A stretch of DNA of 64,000 nucleotides from Candidatus Heimdallarchaeota archaeon (GCA_021399345.1 JAAFKI010000112.1:96001-160000); one strand, 5' to 3'. Positions 2,803 through 17,271 are shown, counted from the first letter of the stretch. A program made the numbers and translations. Notes: generated by a model from the letters alone, not told the origin.

Positions 2803-3843
2803 TTACTTCTTCACAATTTTTCTACTTAACAATGTTATTGCTAAAACTGATACTGAAGTAATTGTCACTATTTCGATTACTCCAAAACCTGCTTTATCAA
2901 TTACAGGATCTTCTAATGTTCCAACTGAAGGGTCATATGTTACTTCATCATCAAAGTGCTCAAAGCTCAAGTATGTTTGGACAGAACCATCGCCTAAGGA
3001 AGAGACTGAACAATTAACTGTCTTGTATTCATAAGAATTGTTAATCAAGTATTGGGCTTGATTTGCATAAGCGAAGAATGCTTGGTATTGTTCTTCACCA
3101 ATAGAGATCTGCTCTTTTACTGCGTCTCCATGGTTGAGTACTTTGTATTCATAGCCGGTTGTGTTTTCATTTGCGTTTATAGGATTACCATTAGTATCGT
3201 TGAGTCTATAATTGTATGCTGTATTCATTGGTATGAAATCGAATCGTAATGCAAGGTTTGAATCTTCTCTTTGCCATGGCCAATTATCCATGATAATATC
3301 AAATTTCATCTCTTGACCACCCTTTAATTCATATCCATCGATTACTTGATCAGCTAGATATAGATGAACAACAATTGTGATCTCAAAATCACCATAATTA
3401 GGTGCATTGATTGTTTCAGAAGTATAGTTGAAATGAACAGCAGATAGTTCTTCAGTTCCTTCAGTATATTCAACATCAAAACCACTGAAAATGAATCTTA
3501 CACTTGATAATGGGAGTGTGTTTGAGAATACTGGACCTGGTGGAGCTTCTTCCTTCCATAAACCTGTTTCATTAAACTGGAATACTCCATCTTCATTATA
3601 ATCTAGATATTCAGTAAGTGAATGGAACATAACATTGTATTCAAATCCTGCATCTGTCATAAATTGGAATTTAGGAACTTGCCCTCCAGCTTTGGCAATA
3701 AAGTGCATGTCATAATAAGAAAATGTCACTTGGTTGTTATCTTCTATCCATAAGAAGTCTTGATCATCTGCACTTACTTGAGTAACTACAAGTAATGCTA
3801 GAAACGCTAAACCGATTGTTATTTTGATTGCTTTGTGTTTCAT
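2803..3843 (-). CDS. Secreted, C-terminally anchored cell-surface protein
   Basis: Signal peptide; KFDI.M.NWPW and YDPSVG motifs; AGFG + TM + RKIVKK tail. Confidence 0.7.
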   Translation of the reverse strand: MKHKAIKITIGLAFLALLVVTQVSADDQDFLWIEDNNQVTFSYYDMHFIAKAGGQVPKFQFMTDAGFEYNVMFHSLTEYLDYNEDGVFQFNETGLWKEEAPPGPVFSNTLPLSSVRFIFSGFDVEYTEGTEELSAVHFNYTSETINAPNYGDFEITIVVHLYLADQVIDGYELKGGQEMKFDIIMDNWPWQREDSNLALRFDFIPMNTAYNYRLNDTNGNPINANENTTGYEYKVLNHGDAVKEQISIGEEQYQAFFAYANQAQYLINNSYEYKTVNCSVSSLGDGSVQTYLSFEHFDDEVTYDPSVGTLEDPVIDKAGFGVIEIVTITSVSVLAITLLSRKIVKK

Positions 3844-12524: not shown

Positions 12525-12886
12525 ATGCCAGATATACCAAATAAAGAAAAACAAGAGATCAGAATATTGGCAGAGGATTTCAGTTGTTTAATTGCAACCC
12601 TTTCATTCAAAAAGGCTCTTATATCTTCTATGAAGTTTTCAAGTCTCTCTATAGTAGATCAGCTAGATGGAGATATTGTTTGATTTGTGGTAATATAGAT
12701 TTACCTACGGATTTTATCCATAAGGATCCAAACTACCCCCAAGTATCTTGTCACAAAATCCAGTCACTAATACCAACTTCTTGGATGAAACTAAGAGATT
12801 TCTTCATTAAAAGTAATTATAAGAAACTCCTCAAAGCAATGGGGGTTCAAAATGTAGAAAAAAAGACAACCAGTGCCTCTAATTAA
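12525..12886 (+). pseudogene. CxxC family paralog 2, split by a 1-nt deletion near 12621 (pseudogene or sequencing error)
   Basis: Frame from ATG 12525 gives MPDIPNKEKQEIRILAEDFSCLIATLSFKKAL, which aligns without gaps to the paralog N-termini. The family core IFYEVFKSLYSRSARWRYCLICG...TSWMKLRDFF is in the 12584 frame. Confidence 0.75.
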
Positions 12887-13390: not shown

Positions 13391-13601
13391 ACTACACCCC
13401 TTGCCATTATGATTGAATCCATACCGACATATTAAGGTATCTCTATAACCTCTGCATAGATATCCGAAGATATAATAGTGAATCTGAAAGCACTCTTCCA
13501 AAATAGGTAAATATGAGGTATATATTATGTAAAAAATAATTGATTCTCGTTTCAAGATTCAAAAAAAAAAATGAATTAAGGACTAATATTCAACATGATA
13601 C

Positions 13602-13751
13602 TTAAAATGACTGAGATAAAGCAGATAAGGAGAGCAATCCAATTACTATTAAAACACATATGGAGATAGCATAAACTAGAAACATACCAAAATAGGATCT
13701 TGCTTTTTCCATTCTAGCTTTTCTTTTTATCTGATTAATATTTGACATCAT
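13602..13751 (-). CDS. 49-aa basic + single-TM microprotein (operon A, last gene)
   Basis: MMSNINQIKRKARMEKARSYFGMFLVYAISICVLIVIGLLSLSALSQSF; GAGGTGA RBS; same length as, and homologous to, 15563..15712. Confidence 0.8.
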   Translation of the reverse strand: MMSNINQIKRKARMEKARSYFGMFLVYAISICVLIVIGLLSLSALSQSF

Positions 13752-13769
13752 TTTTATTTCACCTCTTTT

Positions 13770-13910
13770 GTGATCAGCTTCTTTGTACTCCACCAGAAGA
13801 GGATGGGTACTTTCCTGACCGTGCACAACTGTTTGTGGTGAAGTTGACTAATCTTGCCATGCGTCCTCTACCTAGTTATGGGGAGATGTAGGAAAGAGAA
13901 GCATGGGTGT
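13770..13910 (-). ncRNA. Putative structured 5' leader or small RNA upstream of the 49-aa gene
   Basis: Minus-strand stems ccatgc/gcatgg + ttctc/gagga + ccta/tagg, caact/agttg, ggtcag/ctgatc + gtac/gtac; G-U pairs favour minus strand; starts about 20 nt after TATATAAA (13926-13933). Confidence 0.45.
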
Positions 13911-13925
13911 TTTTTTTTCTTCGGG

Positions 13926-13934
13926 TTTATATAT
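13926..13934. promoter_or_regulatory. TATA box, possibly bidirectional, between the two structured regions
   Basis: TTTATATAT, flanked on both sides by structured GC-rich DNA starting 20-30 nt away. Confidence 0.5.
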
Positions 13935-13949
13935 GAAAGTACACATAGA

Positions 13950-14345
13950 AAGCTAGATAGTGTGCGCTTCAGCACCTGCCTGTTTCGCAACTACACAAGT
14001 GGTTGTCTCTCAGTGAACTTACAATGAAACGGGGAGCCTAGCTAGCTCTATGCTGAAGGTCCACTTACTATTCCAGAACAAAGTCTGGATGACTTCCCCT
14101 CAACGCACGTGAGGGGACCCACTTAAACGACGGTTAGAAAGCCTCTGGCAAGTTTAACCAAGTTTCATAACGTGCGTGATACAGGTATCAGGGGAGCAAG
14201 ATGAAAAACTTGCAGCACACGAACATTCATCTTAGCTCAGATCCTGATCCTTAGCAGACGAAGTGTCTGCGGTAGTGAGTGTTTCAGCAAGAAACAATCA
14301 GCGCGATAGAGATCAACCAGATAGAAGGTTGATCAAGATATAATC
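13950..14345 (+). ncRNA. Large (~400 nt) structured non-coding RNA of unknown class
   Basis: No ORF; about 45-50% GC by hand count in an AT-rich window; 8 or more stems, 2-3 long-range/pseudoknot pairings; G-U pairs favour the + strand. Confidence 0.65.
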
Positions 14346-14399
14346 ATAAATGCAAGAAGAATAAGAAGAGGAAAAGTGGTTAAATCACTTCTCTAAATC

Positions 14400-14543
14400 T
14401 TATAGATATCTTACTGCTACTAGAGCTCCTCCAAAAACTACACCAAGAGCATATAGAAATACTGGCAGAGCGATTCGGAGAATTCTCCAGAGATGTACAA
14501 CTGGTCTTTCAATTTTATAGATCCATTGTGGTCTGTTTATCAT
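14400..14543 (-). CDS. 47-aa single-TM microprotein (operon A), not in the ORF track
   Basis: MINRPQWIYKIERPVVHLWRILRIALPVFLYALGVVFGGALVAVRYL; GGAGGTGAAAAAGA-ATG identical to the RBS of 16205; RP..L.RIL...LP shared with the N-terminus of 15789..16205. Confidence 0.8.
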   Translation of the reverse strand: MINRPQWIYKIERPVVHLWRILRIALPVFLYALGVVFGGALVAVRYL

Positions 14544-14589
14544 TCTTTTTCACCTCCAAGTCGATTATAGAAAAAGGGAAAGCTTCAGC

Positions 14590-14736
14590 TTACCCTGCAA
14601 GAGGGTATTGCTGAAAAGCTAAACTTAAACGAGCTTTAGATCTGAGGGCGCGACGAGCTTTCTTGAGCTGCTTTAACTCCTTTTGGAGTCCCCTAACCTT
14701 TTGATCCAACAAGTTTGAAACTTCATCATGGTTCAT
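14590..14736 (-). CDS. 48-aa basic coiled-coil microprotein (operon A, first gene), not in the ORF track
   Basis: MNHDEVSNLLDQKVRGLQKELKQLKKARRALRSKARLSLAFQQYPLAG; AGGTGA RBS; paralog of 16644..16790. Confidence 0.85.
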   Translation of the reverse strand: MNHDEVSNLLDQKVRGLQKELKQLKKARRALRSKARLSLAFQQYPLAG

Positions 14737-14763
14737 TTTTTTTCACCTTGTGAATTCTTTCAC

Positions 14764-14977
14764 ATGTAGGACTTGTTGCGACATCATATATAAGGGGCTT
14801 TGAGTAGGAAAATGTTGTCACAAAGAAAAAGGCTAATGTCGGACTATGTGCGACATCTTAAACATATGTGTAAAGGCTTGCACACACGCAATTCACCTAT
14901 TTAGAAACGTTAAACAACAGTTAAAGGGCTTTTCAGATTTGCGGTAAAAATTACCTATAATATTAATAAGATGTCGC
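14764..14977 (-). promoter_or_regulatory. Operon A promoter with type-A operators ATGT(C/A)GGA-N5-TGCGACAT
   Basis: atgtaggacttgttgcgacat 14764-14784 next to TATA 14786-14793; atgtcggactatgtgcgacat 14836-14856; half-site gatgtcgc 14970-14977. Confidence 0.7.
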
Positions 14978-15017
14978 CTTTAAGACAACTTGAAAGAACA
15001 AAAAAAAGATTATAAAA

Positions 15018-15458
15018 CTACCCTATTCGATCAGTGGAATCAGCTTTAGATTTTGCCTTAGATGAGGAAGAGGCTACAATCTCTGAAACCTCAGGATAAG
15101 TGGTAACTGTAACTGCTTCAACTTCTTGATCTGTCTCTACTCCAATCTTATGAAGTGCCTTAACACGTTTATCTGTTAAGAAGAAGTCAGCCATTTTAAT
15201 CCAACTAGTAGTCACCAAAACAGGGAAACTATTAAAATCTAATGCACAATTATGGGTATCTTCAGTTAAATCTTGTATTGTATCAATAGCTCCACATTTC
15301 AAACATATTCTTAAGCGAGAAGATTTTTTGTATAAATCATTCATTGTTTCCTGATACAAATGTAAGCCTTGATTAAGCGGAGCATCCCATAAGTCAATAG
15401 CAAAGTGTTTTGCTCGGGATCGAATTACTTTCTTTTTTGCATTAGACATATCTGCCAT
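15018..15458 (-). CDS. CxxC...HxC family paralog 4
   Basis: MADMSNAKK start (GAGGA RBS; alternative ATG 15470); KSSRLRICLKCG...THNC...PVLVTTSWIKMADFF. Confidence 0.85.
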   Translation of the reverse strand: MADMSNAKKKVIRSRAKHFAIDLWDAPLNQGLHLYQETMNDLYKKSSRLRICLKCGAIDTIQDLTEDTHNCALDFNSFPVLVTTSWIKMADFFLTDKRVKALHKIGVETDQEVEAVTVTTYPEVSEIVASSSSKAKSKADSTDRIG

Positions 15459-15468
15459 TTGTATCCTC

Positions 15469-15498
15469 ATGTATTATTAAGTCCTACATCATTTAAAG
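15469..15498 (-). promoter_or_regulatory. Promoter of paralog 4: TTTAAAT followed by a type-A operator
   Basis: Minus strand ctttaaat-g-ATGTAGGACTTaataaTACAT; first 11 nt identical to the 14764 operator. Confidence 0.65.
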
Positions 15499-15562
15499 TT
15501 TGTCCCTTTGGCACAAATTTCCTATTCTTGGTTAAAGTATTAAATTTATAAAAAAAGAGAGC

Positions 15563-15712
15563 TTAAGATAAGTTTGCTAGAGATAAAAATGCTACTACAA
15601 ACAAAGCAACTGAAAACACTATGAGTATTGTATACCCCAGGAGTGTTCCTACGTTTGTTCTTGTTTTTTCTATCCACATTTTTCTTCTAGTGTTATTTAC
15701 GTTTTTAGCCAT
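15563..15712 (-). CDS. 49-aa basic + single-TM microprotein (operon B, last gene), not in the ORF track
   Basis: MAKNVNNTRRKMWIEKTRTNVGTLLGYTILIVFSVALFVVAFLSLANLS; GAGGTGG RBS; homologous to 13602..13751. Confidence 0.8.
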   Translation of the reverse strand: MAKNVNNTRRKMWIEKTRTNVGTLLGYTILIVFSVALFVVAFLSLANLS

Positions 15713-15788
15713 TTATACCACCTCGGTTTTGTTTCTAAAAAAATTCGAAAGAAGAAAATGATTTTGATCACTTTCTTCCTCGTTACAA

Positions 15789-16205
15789 TTATCTAACTAC
15801 ATATATGTCAGCATTTGTTTTAGTAGACCTAACTAAAACACATTCTACACCATCAACTATAGATATTCTAGTTAATTCCTCAGTCACATCATCAACTGCA
15901 TCTAATCTAACTAAATCAACAACAGCTGTGTTACCTAAAGCTGCTCTAACCACATATATATCAGCATAATTAATCTCATTAGTTCTGAGTACTTCAATTG
16001 CAGCATTATCTACTGAAGCAATTATCACATATTCAGAGTAATTTTCATTTGCAGCTACAACATTATTATAGGATAAGTTTATACTGGCTAGAGATACAAT
16101 CAAAGCTACGATCAATGGTAGAGATACTAATAATATTCTAGTTAGGTTAATTTCAGGTCTAGTAAAATTTAGTCGAGCTAATAATTCTTTAACAGATCTT
16201 TTCAT
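15789..16205 (-). CDS. Single-TM protein followed by about six 13-residue beta-type repeats (operon B)
   Basis: TM LTRILLVSLPLIVALIVSLA; repeats end in IEVLR, IYVVR, VDLVR, EELTR, CVLVR, IYVVR; 39-bp DNA periodicity. Confidence 0.8.
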   Translation of the reverse strand: MKRSVKELLARLNFTRPEINLTRILLVSLPLIVALIVSLASINLSYNNVVAANENYSEYVIIASVDNAAIEVLRTNEINYADIYVVRAALGNTAVVDLVRLDAVDDVTEELTRISIVDGVECVLVRSTKTNADIYVVR

Positions 16206-16345: not shown

Positions 16346-16606
16346 TTAATAGTAAAGCGACCCAAACAGGAGCAATTTTTGAGCAAGTGCTTTGTCCTTA
16401 GCCTTTCTCACTTTGTTCTCTATGCTTTCCCTGGAAATCTCTTTATCAGGTCGGGACTTTTTGTTATCGCGATCAGATAATCCTTCCATAAGTTGCTTGA
16501 TGAAAGAATAATAGAGATCCTCATCAATAAATTCAAAATCATACAAAACTTTCATATTGTCAATTACTATTTGGCGCACTGTTTCTACTTGAACTTTGGA
16601 TGCCAT
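16346..16606 (-). CDS. 86-aa hypothetical protein (operon B)
   Basis: GAGGTGA RBS; acidic/aromatic N-half, basic helical C-half. Confidence 0.75.
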   Translation of the reverse strand: MASKVQVETVRQIVIDNMKVLYDFEFIDEDLYYSFIKQLMEGLSDRDNKKSRPDKEISRESIENKVRKAKDKALAQKLLLFGSLYY

Positions 16607-16643
16607 TCATTTCACCTCTATTTGAAAATGGTAAGACTCTAGC

Positions 16644-16790
16644 TTACCCGTAAATCAGGTATTTCCTGATTGGAAATCTAGAACGAGCTTTTGCTCTTCT
16701 AGTGCGACGAGCTCTTTTGAGCTTATTCAACTCCTTGCGGAGTGCCTTAATCTTTCGGTCCAAAATTATACTTACTTCTTGTTTATACAT
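16644..16790 (-). CDS. 48-aa highly basic coiled-coil microprotein (operon B), not in the ORF track
   Basis: MYKQEVSIILDRKIKALRKELNKLKRARRTRRAKARSRFPIRKYLIYG; GAGGTG RBS; same length and DNA-level similarity to 14590..14736. Confidence 0.85.
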   Translation of the reverse strand: MYKQEVSIILDRKIKALRKELNKLKRARRTRRAKARSRFPIRKYLIYG

Positions 16791-16801
16791 TTCTTTACAC
16801 C

Positions 16802-16990
16802 TCAAATGTTTGCAAATCTCCTCAGGTTCAGGTTAGAGTAGAAGCTAATGGTTGCAGTCAGGTATTGCTCATAGATATCCAAGTTCTTGTCTGAATATCG
16901 GTTGGATAGAGTTTTCATGAGTTTATTGAGATCCTCGTAAAGTCTTCGAACCTCGGGATCCAGCAGTTTTTTTATTTCGTTTTTGTTCAT
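16802..16990 (-). CDS. 62-aa helical microprotein (operon B, first gene), distant paralog of the 48-aa proteins
   Basis: MNKNEIKKLLDPEVRRLYEDLNKL aligns with MNHDEVSNLLDQKVRGLQKELKQL; AGGTG RBS. Confidence 0.75.
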   Translation of the reverse strand: MNKNEIKKLLDPEVRRLYEDLNKLMKTLSNRYSDKNLDIYEQYLTATISFYSNLNLRRFANI

Positions 16991-17016: not shown

Positions 17017-17271
17017 TTACAGCATTGTGCAGTAACCTATTTAAGCATCGTTGTGCAGTAATAAATTACCGCATTTTGCAGTAATAAAAGAAATATTATT
17101 AAAAACGACAAAATGACCATATAGGCGATATTTATGCTTATGAACTCGTATAACCCCTTCAATAAATGCCATAAATAGGGGCAAATATTTCCGCTTAAGT
17201 GATTTTATTTGCAGTAATAATATGACTTTGGGAAATTATTACCTTGAGATATACATATATATATTACTGCA
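17017..17271. promoter_or_regulatory. Divergent promoter region with five TGCAGTAA(TA) type-B operator elements
   Basis: TTACaGCA-ttg-TGCAGTAA 17017-17035 next to TATA 17038-17044; TGCAGTAATA at 17054; TTACcGCA-ttt-TGCAGTAA from 17066; TGCAGTAATA at 17210; inverted TATTACTGCA 17262-17271 just after the TATA run of paralog 5. Confidence 0.8.

What the first reader, a model, noticed from the sequence alone, without database searches (positions are those of the whole stretch)
14764..15498. Type-A operator links operon A with paralog 4 (and paralog 3)
The 21-bp palindrome ATGT(C/A)GGA-N5-TGCGACAT occurs twice, 72 bp apart (14764, 14836), with a half-site at 14970. The first copy abuts the TATA box on its downstream side, which is repressor geometry. 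The 11-mer ATGTAGGACTT recurs exactly one base after the TATA box of paralog 4 (15479-89) within another 21-bp ATGTA...TACAT palindrome. ATGTCGG follows the AT box of paralog 3 (13424-30). Together these define a small regulon.
Basis: seen in the sequence. Interest (0 to 1): 0.75.

Follow-up and report, generated by a model that had tools for sequence, protein, structure and literature searches.

The report
Conserved repressor-type operator pair in Heimdallarchaeon
Two copies of a 21-bp palindrome flank the promoter of a tiny-protein operon in an Asgard (Heimdall-group) archaeon, and a third copy lies in the promoter of the neighbouring zinc-protein gene. All are conserved in 14 related genomes in the way protein-binding "off-switch" sites are, but no recognisable regulator is encoded nearby.

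Summary

- **The sites.** O1 (14764-14784) starts one base after the TATA box of the minus-strand microprotein operon A. O2 (14836-14856) lies 72 bp upstream. A related site (15469-15489) lies one base after the TATA box of paralog 4, called p4 here.
- **Genome-wide rank.** A weight matrix built only from distant relatives ranks these three sites first, second and third in the 3.27-Mb genome.
- **Conservation.** In 14 genomes of the genus the half-sites (ATGTCGGA / TCCkACAT) are kept while the central 5 bp vary. The O1-O2 distance is 41, 51-52 or 72-73 bp, which is 4, 5 or 7 helical turns.
- **Rivals excluded.** The site is not a general promoter feature, not an RNA hairpin and not a repeat element.
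- **Most likely mechanism.** A dimeric repressor bound between the TATA box and the transcription start blocks RNA polymerase recruitment, as LrpA does, helped by cooperative binding at O2.
- **The binder is not shown.** The best candidate is p4 itself, a member of a clade-restricted C2HC zinc-protein family with no known fold. Most promoters of this family carry the same kind of palindrome, with bases specific to each paralog group.
The link to paralog 3 is weak, because its element has a 22-bp frame and only one matching half-site. The regulon is local, not genome-wide.
- **Earlier reports.** The scan has already reported this zinc-protein and microprotein system, with palindromic operators, on other DNA (notes e1-5503992 and e1-5504002).

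The parts
14764..14784 (-). O1, the promoter-proximal operator. On the minus strand it reads ATGTCGCA-ACAAG-TCCTACAT. It fills the 21 bp between the TATA box and the predicted TSS (about 14763-14760).
   Evidence: It is conserved in 14 genomes with a variable spacer. Matrix score 25.6 against a null maximum of 17.0.
14786..14793 (-). TATA box of operon A (TTATATAT on the minus strand), one base upstream of O1.
   Evidence: Read from the sequence. TTTATATAGG or TTTATAAAGG sits at the same place in all relatives.
14836..14856 (-). O2, the auxiliary upstream operator. On the minus strand it reads ATGTCGCA-CATAG-TCCGACAT. It lies 72 bp upstream of O1.
   Evidence: Matrix score 29.3, the best in the genome. 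It is conserved, and the O1-O2 distances fall into classes of 72/73, 51/52 and 41 bp.
14971..14977 (+). Isolated half-site ATGTCGC (minus strand GCGACAT), in the region 3' of p4.
   Evidence: It is kept as (G/A)C(G/T)ACATCTT in four close relatives. ATGTCGC occurs only 60 times genome-wide. Its function is uncertain.
14590..14747 (-). First gene of operon A: a 48-aa basic coiled-coil microprotein (pI 10.7), with its GGTG Shine-Dalgarno sequence (14744-14747) and A-run leader.
   Evidence: Orthologues lie behind every type-A promoter.
14400..14543 (-). Second gene of operon A: a 47-aa protein with a hydrophobic C-terminal stretch, read here as a membrane microprotein.
   Evidence: It is covered by a contig of an RNA library at 14300-14557.
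15469..15489 (-). Operator in the p4 promoter (ATGTAGGA-CTTAA-TAATACAT). It has one consensus half-site and one degenerate half-site, and lies between the TATA box and GAGG-N6-ATG.
   Evidence: It is the third best matrix hit in the genome, at 18.9. ATGTA-N11-TACAT is kept in all p4 orthologues.
15491..15497 (-). TATA-like box of p4 (TTTAAAT on the minus strand), one base upstream of its operator.
   Evidence: It is conserved as TTTATAA or TTTTAAA in relatives.
15018..15458 (-). p4 (paralog 4): a 146-aa C2HC zinc-protein family member and the candidate binder. Its true start is MADMSNAKK.
   Evidence: AF2 gives about 90 pLDDT over residues 1-113. It always lies next to the type-A promoter.
13409..13430 (-). 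Related 22-bp element after the TTAAT box of paralog 3 (ATGTCGGT-N6-TCAATCAT). Only the left half resembles type A.
   Evidence: ATGT-N14-(A/T)CAT is conserved in p3 orthologues.

Best explanation
O1, O2 and the p4-promoter site are operators, meaning binding sites for a sequence-specific protein that binds as a dimer. That protein would repress the microprotein operon A and the adjacent gene p4.

O1 fills the 21 bp between the TATA box and the predicted transcription start. A protein bound there would let TBP and TFB bind but would sterically block recruitment of RNA polymerase. This is the mechanism shown for Pyrococcus LrpA.

O2 lies on the same face of the helix (4, 5 or 7 turns away, depending on the species). 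It would raise occupancy of O1 through cooperative contact or DNA looping.

The p4 site has one good half-site and one degenerate half-site, so it would be filled only at higher protein levels, giving negative feedback.

Shown: the existence of the sites, their rarity, their position next to the TATA box, their conservation pattern and their phasing.

Inferred: protein binding, the sign of regulation, the TSS position, and the identity of the binder. My preferred binder is p4 itself, at roughly 45%.
For: 1. Rarity. The sites are the three best matches in the genome to a matrix built without this genome or its close kin. They are the only near-perfect palindromes of this type in 3.27 Mb.

2. 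Footprint. In 15 loci of 14 genomes (68-94% DNA identity) O1 follows the TATA box by 1-2 bases. Positions 5-8 and 14-17 are kept (C 11/11, G 11/11, A 11/11, C 10/11), while the four central positions 9-12 vary most.

3. O2 is present in all of these loci. Start-to-start distances are 72, 72, 72, 72, 73, 51, 52, 51, 51, 51, 41, 41, 41, 41 and 41 bp. These are 7, 5 and 4 turns of about 10.3 bp.

4. It is not a basal promoter element. ATGT-N13-ACAT occurs 66 times genome-wide, and only 8 of 132 oriented occurrences follow an A/T box. Of those, only the two in this locus are followed by a Shine-Dalgarno sequence and start codon at operon distance.

5. [quoted passage not shown]

6. Evidence for p4 as the binder.
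- p4 neighbours the type-A promoter in every locus, in tandem or divergent orientation.
- 22 of 52 non-redundant promoters of the C2HC family carry TGT-N13-ACA, against 1.7% expected. The inner bases are specific to each orthologous group.
- Operon B and its neighbouring paralog share a different palindrome (TTACTGCA type) in the same geometry.
- Paralogs pA, pC and pD have such palindromes but no coiled-coil microprotein gene nearby.

7. Contigs of metatranscriptome-labelled libraries cover the bodies of operon A (to 14695) and p4 (14930-15405) but not the 14696-14929 promoter region, whereas a DNA run is continuous across it. This is a weak hint only.
Against: - No TSS is mapped, so 'between TATA and TSS' rests on the usual archaeal TATA-to-start distance of about 25 nt.
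- No protein-DNA binding is shown.
- No recognisable DNA-binding domain is encoded in the locus.
- p4 has no Pfam family, no sequence match to solved structures and no convincing fold match. Its overall pI is 6.9.
- The 48-aa and 53-aa coiled-coil microproteins are much more basic, at pI 10.7 and 11.4, and could be the binders instead.
- Orthologous promoters are not independent samples, so the conservation statistics overstate significance.
- The outer ATGT/ACAT bases were partly a search criterion. G008 shows they can change.
Confidence: 0.68

Rival explanations
1. The operators function as described, but the binder is the 48-aa basic coiled-coil microprotein encoded by the first gene of operon A. 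It would act as an autorepressor that dimerises through its zipper and grips DNA with its basic tail. p4 would then be only a co-regulated target.
For: The 48-aa protein and its operon-B paralog are extremely basic, at pI 10.7 and 11.4. Its sequence looks like an N-terminal heptad (coiled-coil) segment followed by an Arg/Lys-rich tail (translation; my reading; no Pfam match reached its threshold). It is the first gene behind every type-A promoter. It has paralogs in operon B, which has a different palindrome.
Against: C2HC-family genes far from any coiled-coil microprotein gene (pA, pC, pD) carry the same kind of post-TATA palindrome. To my knowledge, no described DNA-binding family has a zipper followed by a basic tail in this order. 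The half-site centres lie 13 bp apart, which is far for a single continuous coiled-coil fork (inference).
Confidence: 0.17
2. The sites bind a regulator encoded elsewhere in the genome, either a classical HTH or RHH protein or an activator. The whole zinc-protein and microprotein cluster would be its target set.
For: No known DNA-binding domain was found in the locus. O2 lies upstream of the TATA box, where archaeal activators usually bind (established knowledge).
Against: No other site in the genome exceeds the null, so such a regulator would have only this locus as its target. The palindromes differ between paralogous units in step with the neighbouring C2HC paralog, which would need several unlinked regulators. 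The position of O1 argues for repression, not activation.
Confidence: 0.1
3. The palindromes are not protein-binding sites. They could be RNA hairpins in a leader or terminator, relics of the segmental duplication that made the paralogous units, or ends of a small mobile element.
For: The locus is made of duplicated units. A 355-bp mobile insertion lies nearby. Palindromes can fold.
Against: Stem positions 5/17 and 7/15 of O1 are mismatched in 7/11 and 5/11 unique orthologous sequences, and there are almost no compensatory changes. The site lies upstream of the predicted TSS. There are no further copies anywhere in the genome. The flanking promoter sequence has diverged to 68-73% identity while the half-sites stay put and the spacer varies, which neutral relics would not do.
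Confidence: 0.05

Closest known systems
LrpA autoregulatory operator of Pyrococcus furiosus. MDR1 of Archaeoglobus and Phr of Pyrococcus are similar (from my own knowledge).
   Same: The site borders the TATA box on its downstream side. TBP and TFB can still bind, and RNA polymerase recruitment is blocked (PMC2995911). If p4 is the binder, the regulator's own gene is also a target.
   Different: No Lrp/AsnC, MarR/DtxR or wHTH protein is encoded here. The site is a 21-bp 8-N5-8 palindrome with its own sequence. There is also an upstream auxiliary operator at phased distances.
NrpR operators of the Methanococcus maripaludis nif and glnA promoters (GGAA-N6-TTCC; from my own knowledge, not checked in a paper here).
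   Same: Two palindromic operators at one archaeal promoter are used cooperatively, and the first overlaps the start-site region.
   Different: The second NrpR operator lies downstream, not upstream. NrpR is a large wHTH protein. No NrpR homologue was seen in the locus.
Small C(P)XCG zinc-finger proteins of haloarchaea, such as Brz (named in earlier scan notes e1-1465095 and e1-5503992; not read by me).
   Same: The protein is small, and its CxxCG knuckle (CLKCG) together with a second ligand pair suggests one zinc site. A regulatory role is proposed.
   Different: The second pair is HxC. There is no detectable sequence or fold similarity. The family is confined to a narrow Heimdall-group clade: 25 representatives in 1.84 billion proteins.
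Paralogous repressor and operator sets with diverged specificity, such as lambdoid phage repressors or Ss-LrpB-type autoregulators.
   Same: Each paralogous unit keeps the same promoter geometry but has its own palindrome. Type A is ATGTCGGA, type B is TTACTGCA, and other types begin ATGTCATC, ATGTATC or ATGTAATC.
   Different: The binder family is unidentified, and there is no experimental specificity data.

Membership tests
Archaeal repressor operator bordering the TATA box downstream (LrpA/MDR1/Phr type) | Dyad-symmetric site of about 15-25 bp | tested here: met
   The 21-bp 8-N5-8 palindromes match 6/8 (O1) and 7/8 (O2) between their arms.
Archaeal repressor operator bordering the TATA box downstream (LrpA/MDR1/Phr type) | [quoted passage not shown] | tested here: inconclusive
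   TATA adjacency (a 1-2 nt gap) holds in all 15 loci. The TSS is not mapped, because only contigs were available.
Archaeal repressor operator bordering the TATA box downstream (LrpA/MDR1/Phr type) | Half-sites conserved across orthologous promoters while the spacer and flanks drift | tested here: met
   Column counts: positions 5, 6, 8 and 15 are (near-)invariant, and positions 9-12 are variable. The flanks are 68-83% identical.
Archaeal repressor operator bordering the TATA box downstream (LrpA/MDR1/Phr type) | A specific protein binds the site and represses transcription | not testable with these tools
   This needs EMSA or footprinting and in vitro transcription.
Target of a known transcription-factor family encoded in cis (Lrp/AsnC, MarR, ArsR, TrmB, RHH, AbrB, PadR) | A neighbouring gene carries the family's DNA-binding domain | tested here: not met
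   Pfam found no such domain in the 8 small ORFs scanned between 12584 and 16205 or in 10 flanking genes. The operon B microproteins at 16346-16990 were not scanned.
RNA hairpin (leader or terminator) | Base pairs are maintained by compensatory change | tested here: not met
   Mismatches persist at 5/17 (7 of 11 sequences) and 7/15 (5 of 11), and there is one double change in all.
Terminal inverted repeats or a repeat family of a mobile element | Further copies elsewhere in the genome | tested here: not met
   No other site lies within 2 mismatches in 3.27 Mb, and no matrix hit exceeds the null outside the locus.
C(P)XCG small zinc-finger proteins (for p4, the candidate binder) | CPxCG-type knuckles forming a zinc site, with detectable homology | tested here: inconclusive
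   CLKCG and HxC are invariant. There is no Pfam, PDB-sequence or fold match. Zinc binding was not tested.

The most novel reading that the evidence does not exclude
The C2HC zinc proteins (p4 and its 7 paralogs here, 1-8 copies in all 25 genomes of the genus) are a previously unrecognised family of sequence-specific DNA-binding autoregulators with a new fold. Each paralog would recognise its own variant of a (A)TGT-N13-ACA(T) palindrome placed between the TATA box and the start site. Together they would form a set of orthogonal repressor and operator pairs that control microprotein operons in Asgard archaea.
Probability: 0.4. Interest if true: 0.72.

Novelty: new variant of a known kind. Interest (0 to 1): 0.58.

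Why it matters

This locus offers a compact and directly testable circuit:
- three short, well-defined operators with a clear consensus;
- a natural series of spacing variants (41, 51 and 72 bp);
- paralogous units with different operator sequences;
- only a handful of small candidate binders, all easy to synthesise.

If the zinc protein is the binder, it adds a new DNA-binding fold and a ready-made set of orthogonal repressor and operator pairs. If it is not, the operators are bait for finding the true regulator.

The mechanism itself, a repressor sitting just downstream of the TATA box, is textbook for archaea. The cis-element alone is therefore solid rather than surprising.

Tried and rejected
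- Rfam at gathering thresholds found nothing in the window, and there are no tRNAs.
- Pfam on p4, p3, the frameshifted paralog at 12584-12886 (pE) and five small ORFs of the cluster gave no hit above threshold.
- Fold searches with the p4 model found nothing convincing. Foldseek against the PDB gave no match at E<=0.001, and VIA-align wide gave a best Z of 5.0 to unrelated helical proteins. This does not show that the fold is new.
- A profile search of PDB sequences gave nothing below E 0.37.
- ESM Atlas returned unnamed clusters only, at scores of 0.91-0.93.
- The homodimer prediction for p4 residues 1-113 returned 'no answer' (score 0.05). It is not evidence either way.
- The family profile against 1.84 billion representatives gave 25 hits. 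One weak hit (P0047, E 1.3e-4) is a protein of 7 Helicase-associated (PF03457) repeats matched by p4 positions 87-113. p4 itself gives no HA hit in Pfam, so I did not use this.
- An apparent genome-wide excess of TGT-N13-ACA (1057 against about 800) is codon periodicity. The gaps 7, 10, 13, 16 and so on are all raised.
- The other matrix hits lie within the null range. C112:9484 scores 17.4 and C110:14868 scores 15.5. On my reading of the flanking sequence both lie inside coding sequence.
- Reads: only Logan contigs were available, so no starts, ends or strand could be read. The first attempt failed and the second worked.
The single-protein scan gave 4 public MAG loci.
- My first TATA regular expression missed the operon A promoter and was redone.
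- My ATGT/ACAT regular expression missed the G008 pair, which I found by eye.

Full report
**Setting**

- The window is G000:C41:96001-160000 of a 3.27-Mb draft genome in 199 contigs with 33.5% G+C.
- Public contigs that encode near-identical p4 protein are titled Candidatus Heimdallarchaeota MAGs.
- Around the finding, the minus strand carries a cluster of small genes. Paralog 4 (p4) runs from 15458 to 15018. Then comes a 280-bp intergenic region. Then comes 'operon A': a 48-aa basic coiled-coil protein (14736-14590) and a 47-aa protein with a hydrophobic C-terminal stretch, which I read as a membrane protein (14543-14400).
- Flanking genes are ordinary cellular genes: a DEAD-box helicase, an M20 peptidase, ETF subunits and an FAD oxidase.

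**Observation**

- O1 (14764-14784) and O2 (14836-14856) fit ATGTMGGA-N5-TGCGACAT exactly.
- With up to 3 mismatches, the only other hit in the window is the p4 promoter site at 15469-15489. That makes 5 matches against 0.41 expected, and 0 of 100 shuffles reach 5.
- CG-containing words are depleted in this genome. ATGTCGCA occurs 19 times against about 63 expected from composition, which makes the cluster more striking.
- Across the whole genome, only O1 and O2 lie within 2 mismatches of the ideal palindrome.

**Promoter geometry (read on the minus strand)**

- Operon A reads TTATATAT-G-[O1, 21 bp]-GTGAAAGAATTCACAA-GGTG-A7-ATG.
- p4 reads TTTAAAT-G-[21-bp site]-GAGGATACAA-ATG.
- With the usual archaeal distance of about 25 nt from TATA to start (established knowledge), both palindromes fill the space between the TATA box and the transcription start.
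[quoted passage not shown] This was shown for Pyrococcus LrpA (PMC2995911).

**Comparative test**

- A DNA search of 40 relatives found the region in 15 other genomes, all of the same genus, at 68-94% identity. I fetched further loci.
- In 15 loci of 14 genomes, the orthologous promoter has a TATA box, 1-2 bases, and then ATGTCG(G/C)A-N5-(T)(C)C(T/G/A)ACAT. The genomes are G000, G018, G009, G013, G006, G020, G016, G023, G001 (two loci), G017, G012, G022, G005 and G008.
- G008 keeps the core but has changed outer bases, so TGTCGGA is the real core.
- Column counts over 11 unique O1 sequences give C5 11/11, G6 11/11, A8 11/11 and C15 10/11. Positions 9-12 take three or four different bases. Conserved arms around a free spacer are the signature of a dimeric DNA-binding protein.
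- The arms do not co-vary to keep pairing. Positions 5/17 are C·T in 7 of 11 sequences, and 7/15 is unpaired in 5 of 11 (C·C in 4). This speaks against an RNA hairpin.

**O2 and spacing**

- An upstream second site is present in every locus.
- Its distance from O1 falls into three classes: 72-73 bp in the five closest genomes, 51-52 bp in five loci, and 41 bp in G017, G012, G022, G005 and G008.
- These are 7.0, 5.0 and 4.0 turns of 10.3 bp.
- Three independent classes all falling within 1 bp of whole turns has a chance of roughly 0.29 cubed, about 0.02. This is my estimate.
- The pattern fits two dimers on one face of the DNA that touch or loop. In the 41-bp class the two sites bracket the BRE and TATA box.

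**Independent ranking**

- I built a weight matrix from 14 sites of the more distant genomes only, leaving out G000 and its close kin.
- It scores O2 at 29.3, O1 at 25.6 and the p4 site at 18.9. The p4 site type was never in the training set. These are the three best scores in the genome.
- Three second-order Markov genomes give maxima of 14.8-17.0.
- The next hits (17.4 and 15.5) lie within the null range. On my reading of the flanking sequence both lie in coding sequence.
- The regulon is therefore local.

**Not a basal promoter feature**

- ATGT-N13-ACAT occurs 66 times in the genome.
- Only 8 of the 132 oriented occurrences follow an A/T box. Of these, only the two in this locus are followed by a Shine-Dalgarno sequence and start codon at operon distance.
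- An apparent excess of TGT-N13-ACA genome-wide is codon periodicity.

**The p4 site, paralog 3 and the half-site**

- In all p4 orthologues the promoter keeps a TATA box, ATGTA(G/T)G...(T/A)ACAT, and then GAG. One arm matches type A and the other is degenerate, so it is a weaker site.
- Paralog 3 keeps ATGT-N14-(A/T)CAT, a 22-bp frame, after TTAAT. Only its left arm resembles type A in G000, so I regard it as a related but distinct site.
- The isolated ATGTCGC at 14971 is kept as (G/A)C(G/T)ACATCTT in four close relatives. It lies 3' of the p4 stop codon, and its role is open.

**Who binds?**

- No known DNA-binding domain is encoded in the cluster.
- p4 belongs to a family of 8 paralogs, all on this contig. 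The family is present in 25 of 25 genomes of the genus, at 1-8 copies each.
- The family is tiny overall: 24 clusters in one database and 25 representatives among 1.84 billion proteins.
- Invariant residues include CxKCG and HxC.
- The AF2 model is confident for residues 1-113. It shows two long N-terminal helices, a zinc-knuckle hairpin and three short helices.
- That model has no convincing match in the PDB.

Four observations favour p4 as the binder.
1. It always lies beside the type-A promoter, in tandem or divergent orientation.
2. Of 52 non-redundant family promoters, 22 carry TGT-N13-ACA, against 1.7% expected. The inner bases are typical of each orthologous group: ATGTAGG for p4, ATGTATC..AGTACAC for pC, ATGTAATC-N5-GATTACAC for distant paralog-5-like genes, and ATGTCATC for pB-like genes. 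These promoters are kin, so the P-value is only indicative.
3. Operon B (TATA at 17036-17044, palindrome TTACTGCA-CAA-TGCTGTAA at 17017-17035) and its neighbouring paralog 5 share a different half-site in the same geometry.
4. Paralogs pA, pC and pD have such palindromes but no coiled-coil microprotein gene nearby.

Against p4: its pI is 6.9, with only the N-terminal 45 residues basic. The 48-aa and 53-aa coiled-coil microproteins have pI 10.7 and 11.4, and they remain a real alternative.

**Expression hints**

- Only assembled contigs of public runs could be laid on the region.
- Two libraries labelled metatranscriptomic come from one study and may in fact be DNA. They cover 13635-13820 joined to 14177-14455, then 14426-14695, then 14930-15405. 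They do not cover 14696-14929 or 15406-16000.
- A DNA run is continuous from 14176 to 16000.
- One RNA library holds a contig at 14300-14557.
- This fits two transcription units separated by a silent promoter region, but it is weak evidence.

**Comparison and novelty**

- The cis-logic is that of known archaeal repressors (LrpA, MDR1, Phr, NrpR-like double operators). The element is a new instance of a known kind.
- What is unusual is that no known regulator family is attached to it. The most plausible binder is a clade-restricted zinc protein with an unmatched predicted fold, and paralogous units carry diverged palindromes in identical geometry.
- Earlier notes of this scan describe the same zinc-protein, microprotein and operator system in other genomes (e1-5503992, e1-5504002). 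The system as such has therefore been seen before in the scan.
- This report adds the genus-wide footprint, the genome-wide ranking, the spacing classes, and the exclusion of the hairpin, repeat and basal-promoter readings for the type-A sites.

**Verdict**

- The operator interpretation is well supported by comparison. About 0.85 that these are protein-binding regulatory sites, and about 0.68 for the full repressor model.
- The binder is unproven.
- The paralog-3 link is weak.

Noticed in passing
window 13821-14176: Contigs of three other runs join 13820 directly to 14176/14177. In this genome, therefore, a 355-356-bp stretch is an insertion inside operon A, between the 47-aa gene and the 49-aa membrane gene. 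An earlier scan note reads it as a gene-less IS607/TnpB-type element.
   Followed up: partly
window 15501-15513: The element TGCCAAAGGGACA (minus strand) lies just upstream of the p4 TATA box. It is kept in p4 orthologues of distant relatives, often as a TGCCAATTGGCA-like palindrome. It may be a second regulatory site in an activator position.
   Followed up: partly
window 14868-14895: An ATGTGTG...CACACAT-type palindrome lies directly upstream of O2 and is conserved in close relatives. Distant relatives have GTGCAAT-N-TTGCAC at the same place. It could be a site for another paralog or the p4 terminator.
   Followed up: no
window 17017-17044: The operon B promoter has the 19-bp palindrome TTACTGCA-CAA-TGCTGTAA abutting its TATA box, the same geometry as O1. 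Paralog 5 (17300-17698) has a TTACTGCA half-site after its own TATA run.
   Followed up: partly
G000:C95:530-760 (outside the window): A fourth coiled-coil microprotein gene lies here. Its TATA box is flanked by a 12-bp inverted repeat, TCTGTAAGTTAT / ATAACTTACAGA, which is a different operator layout.
   Followed up: no
window 12584-12886: This family copy is frameshifted: the MPDIPNKEK start lies in another frame upstream. It still has a TTGTACAG-N-..GTACAA palindrome after a TATA-like box.
   Followed up: no
L010 (G023:C148) about 3120-3190, and L033 (G001:C7) about 290-330: Further microprotein operons in relatives have a TATA box followed by ATGTCATC...ATGACAT-type palindromes, with a second copy 47 bp upstream. 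This is a third operator specificity in the same layout.
   Followed up: no
window 14748-14761: GTGAAAGAATTCAC is an inverted repeat in the predicted 5' leader of operon A. It is kept in close relatives (GTGAA..TTCAC) but not in distant ones.
   Followed up: no
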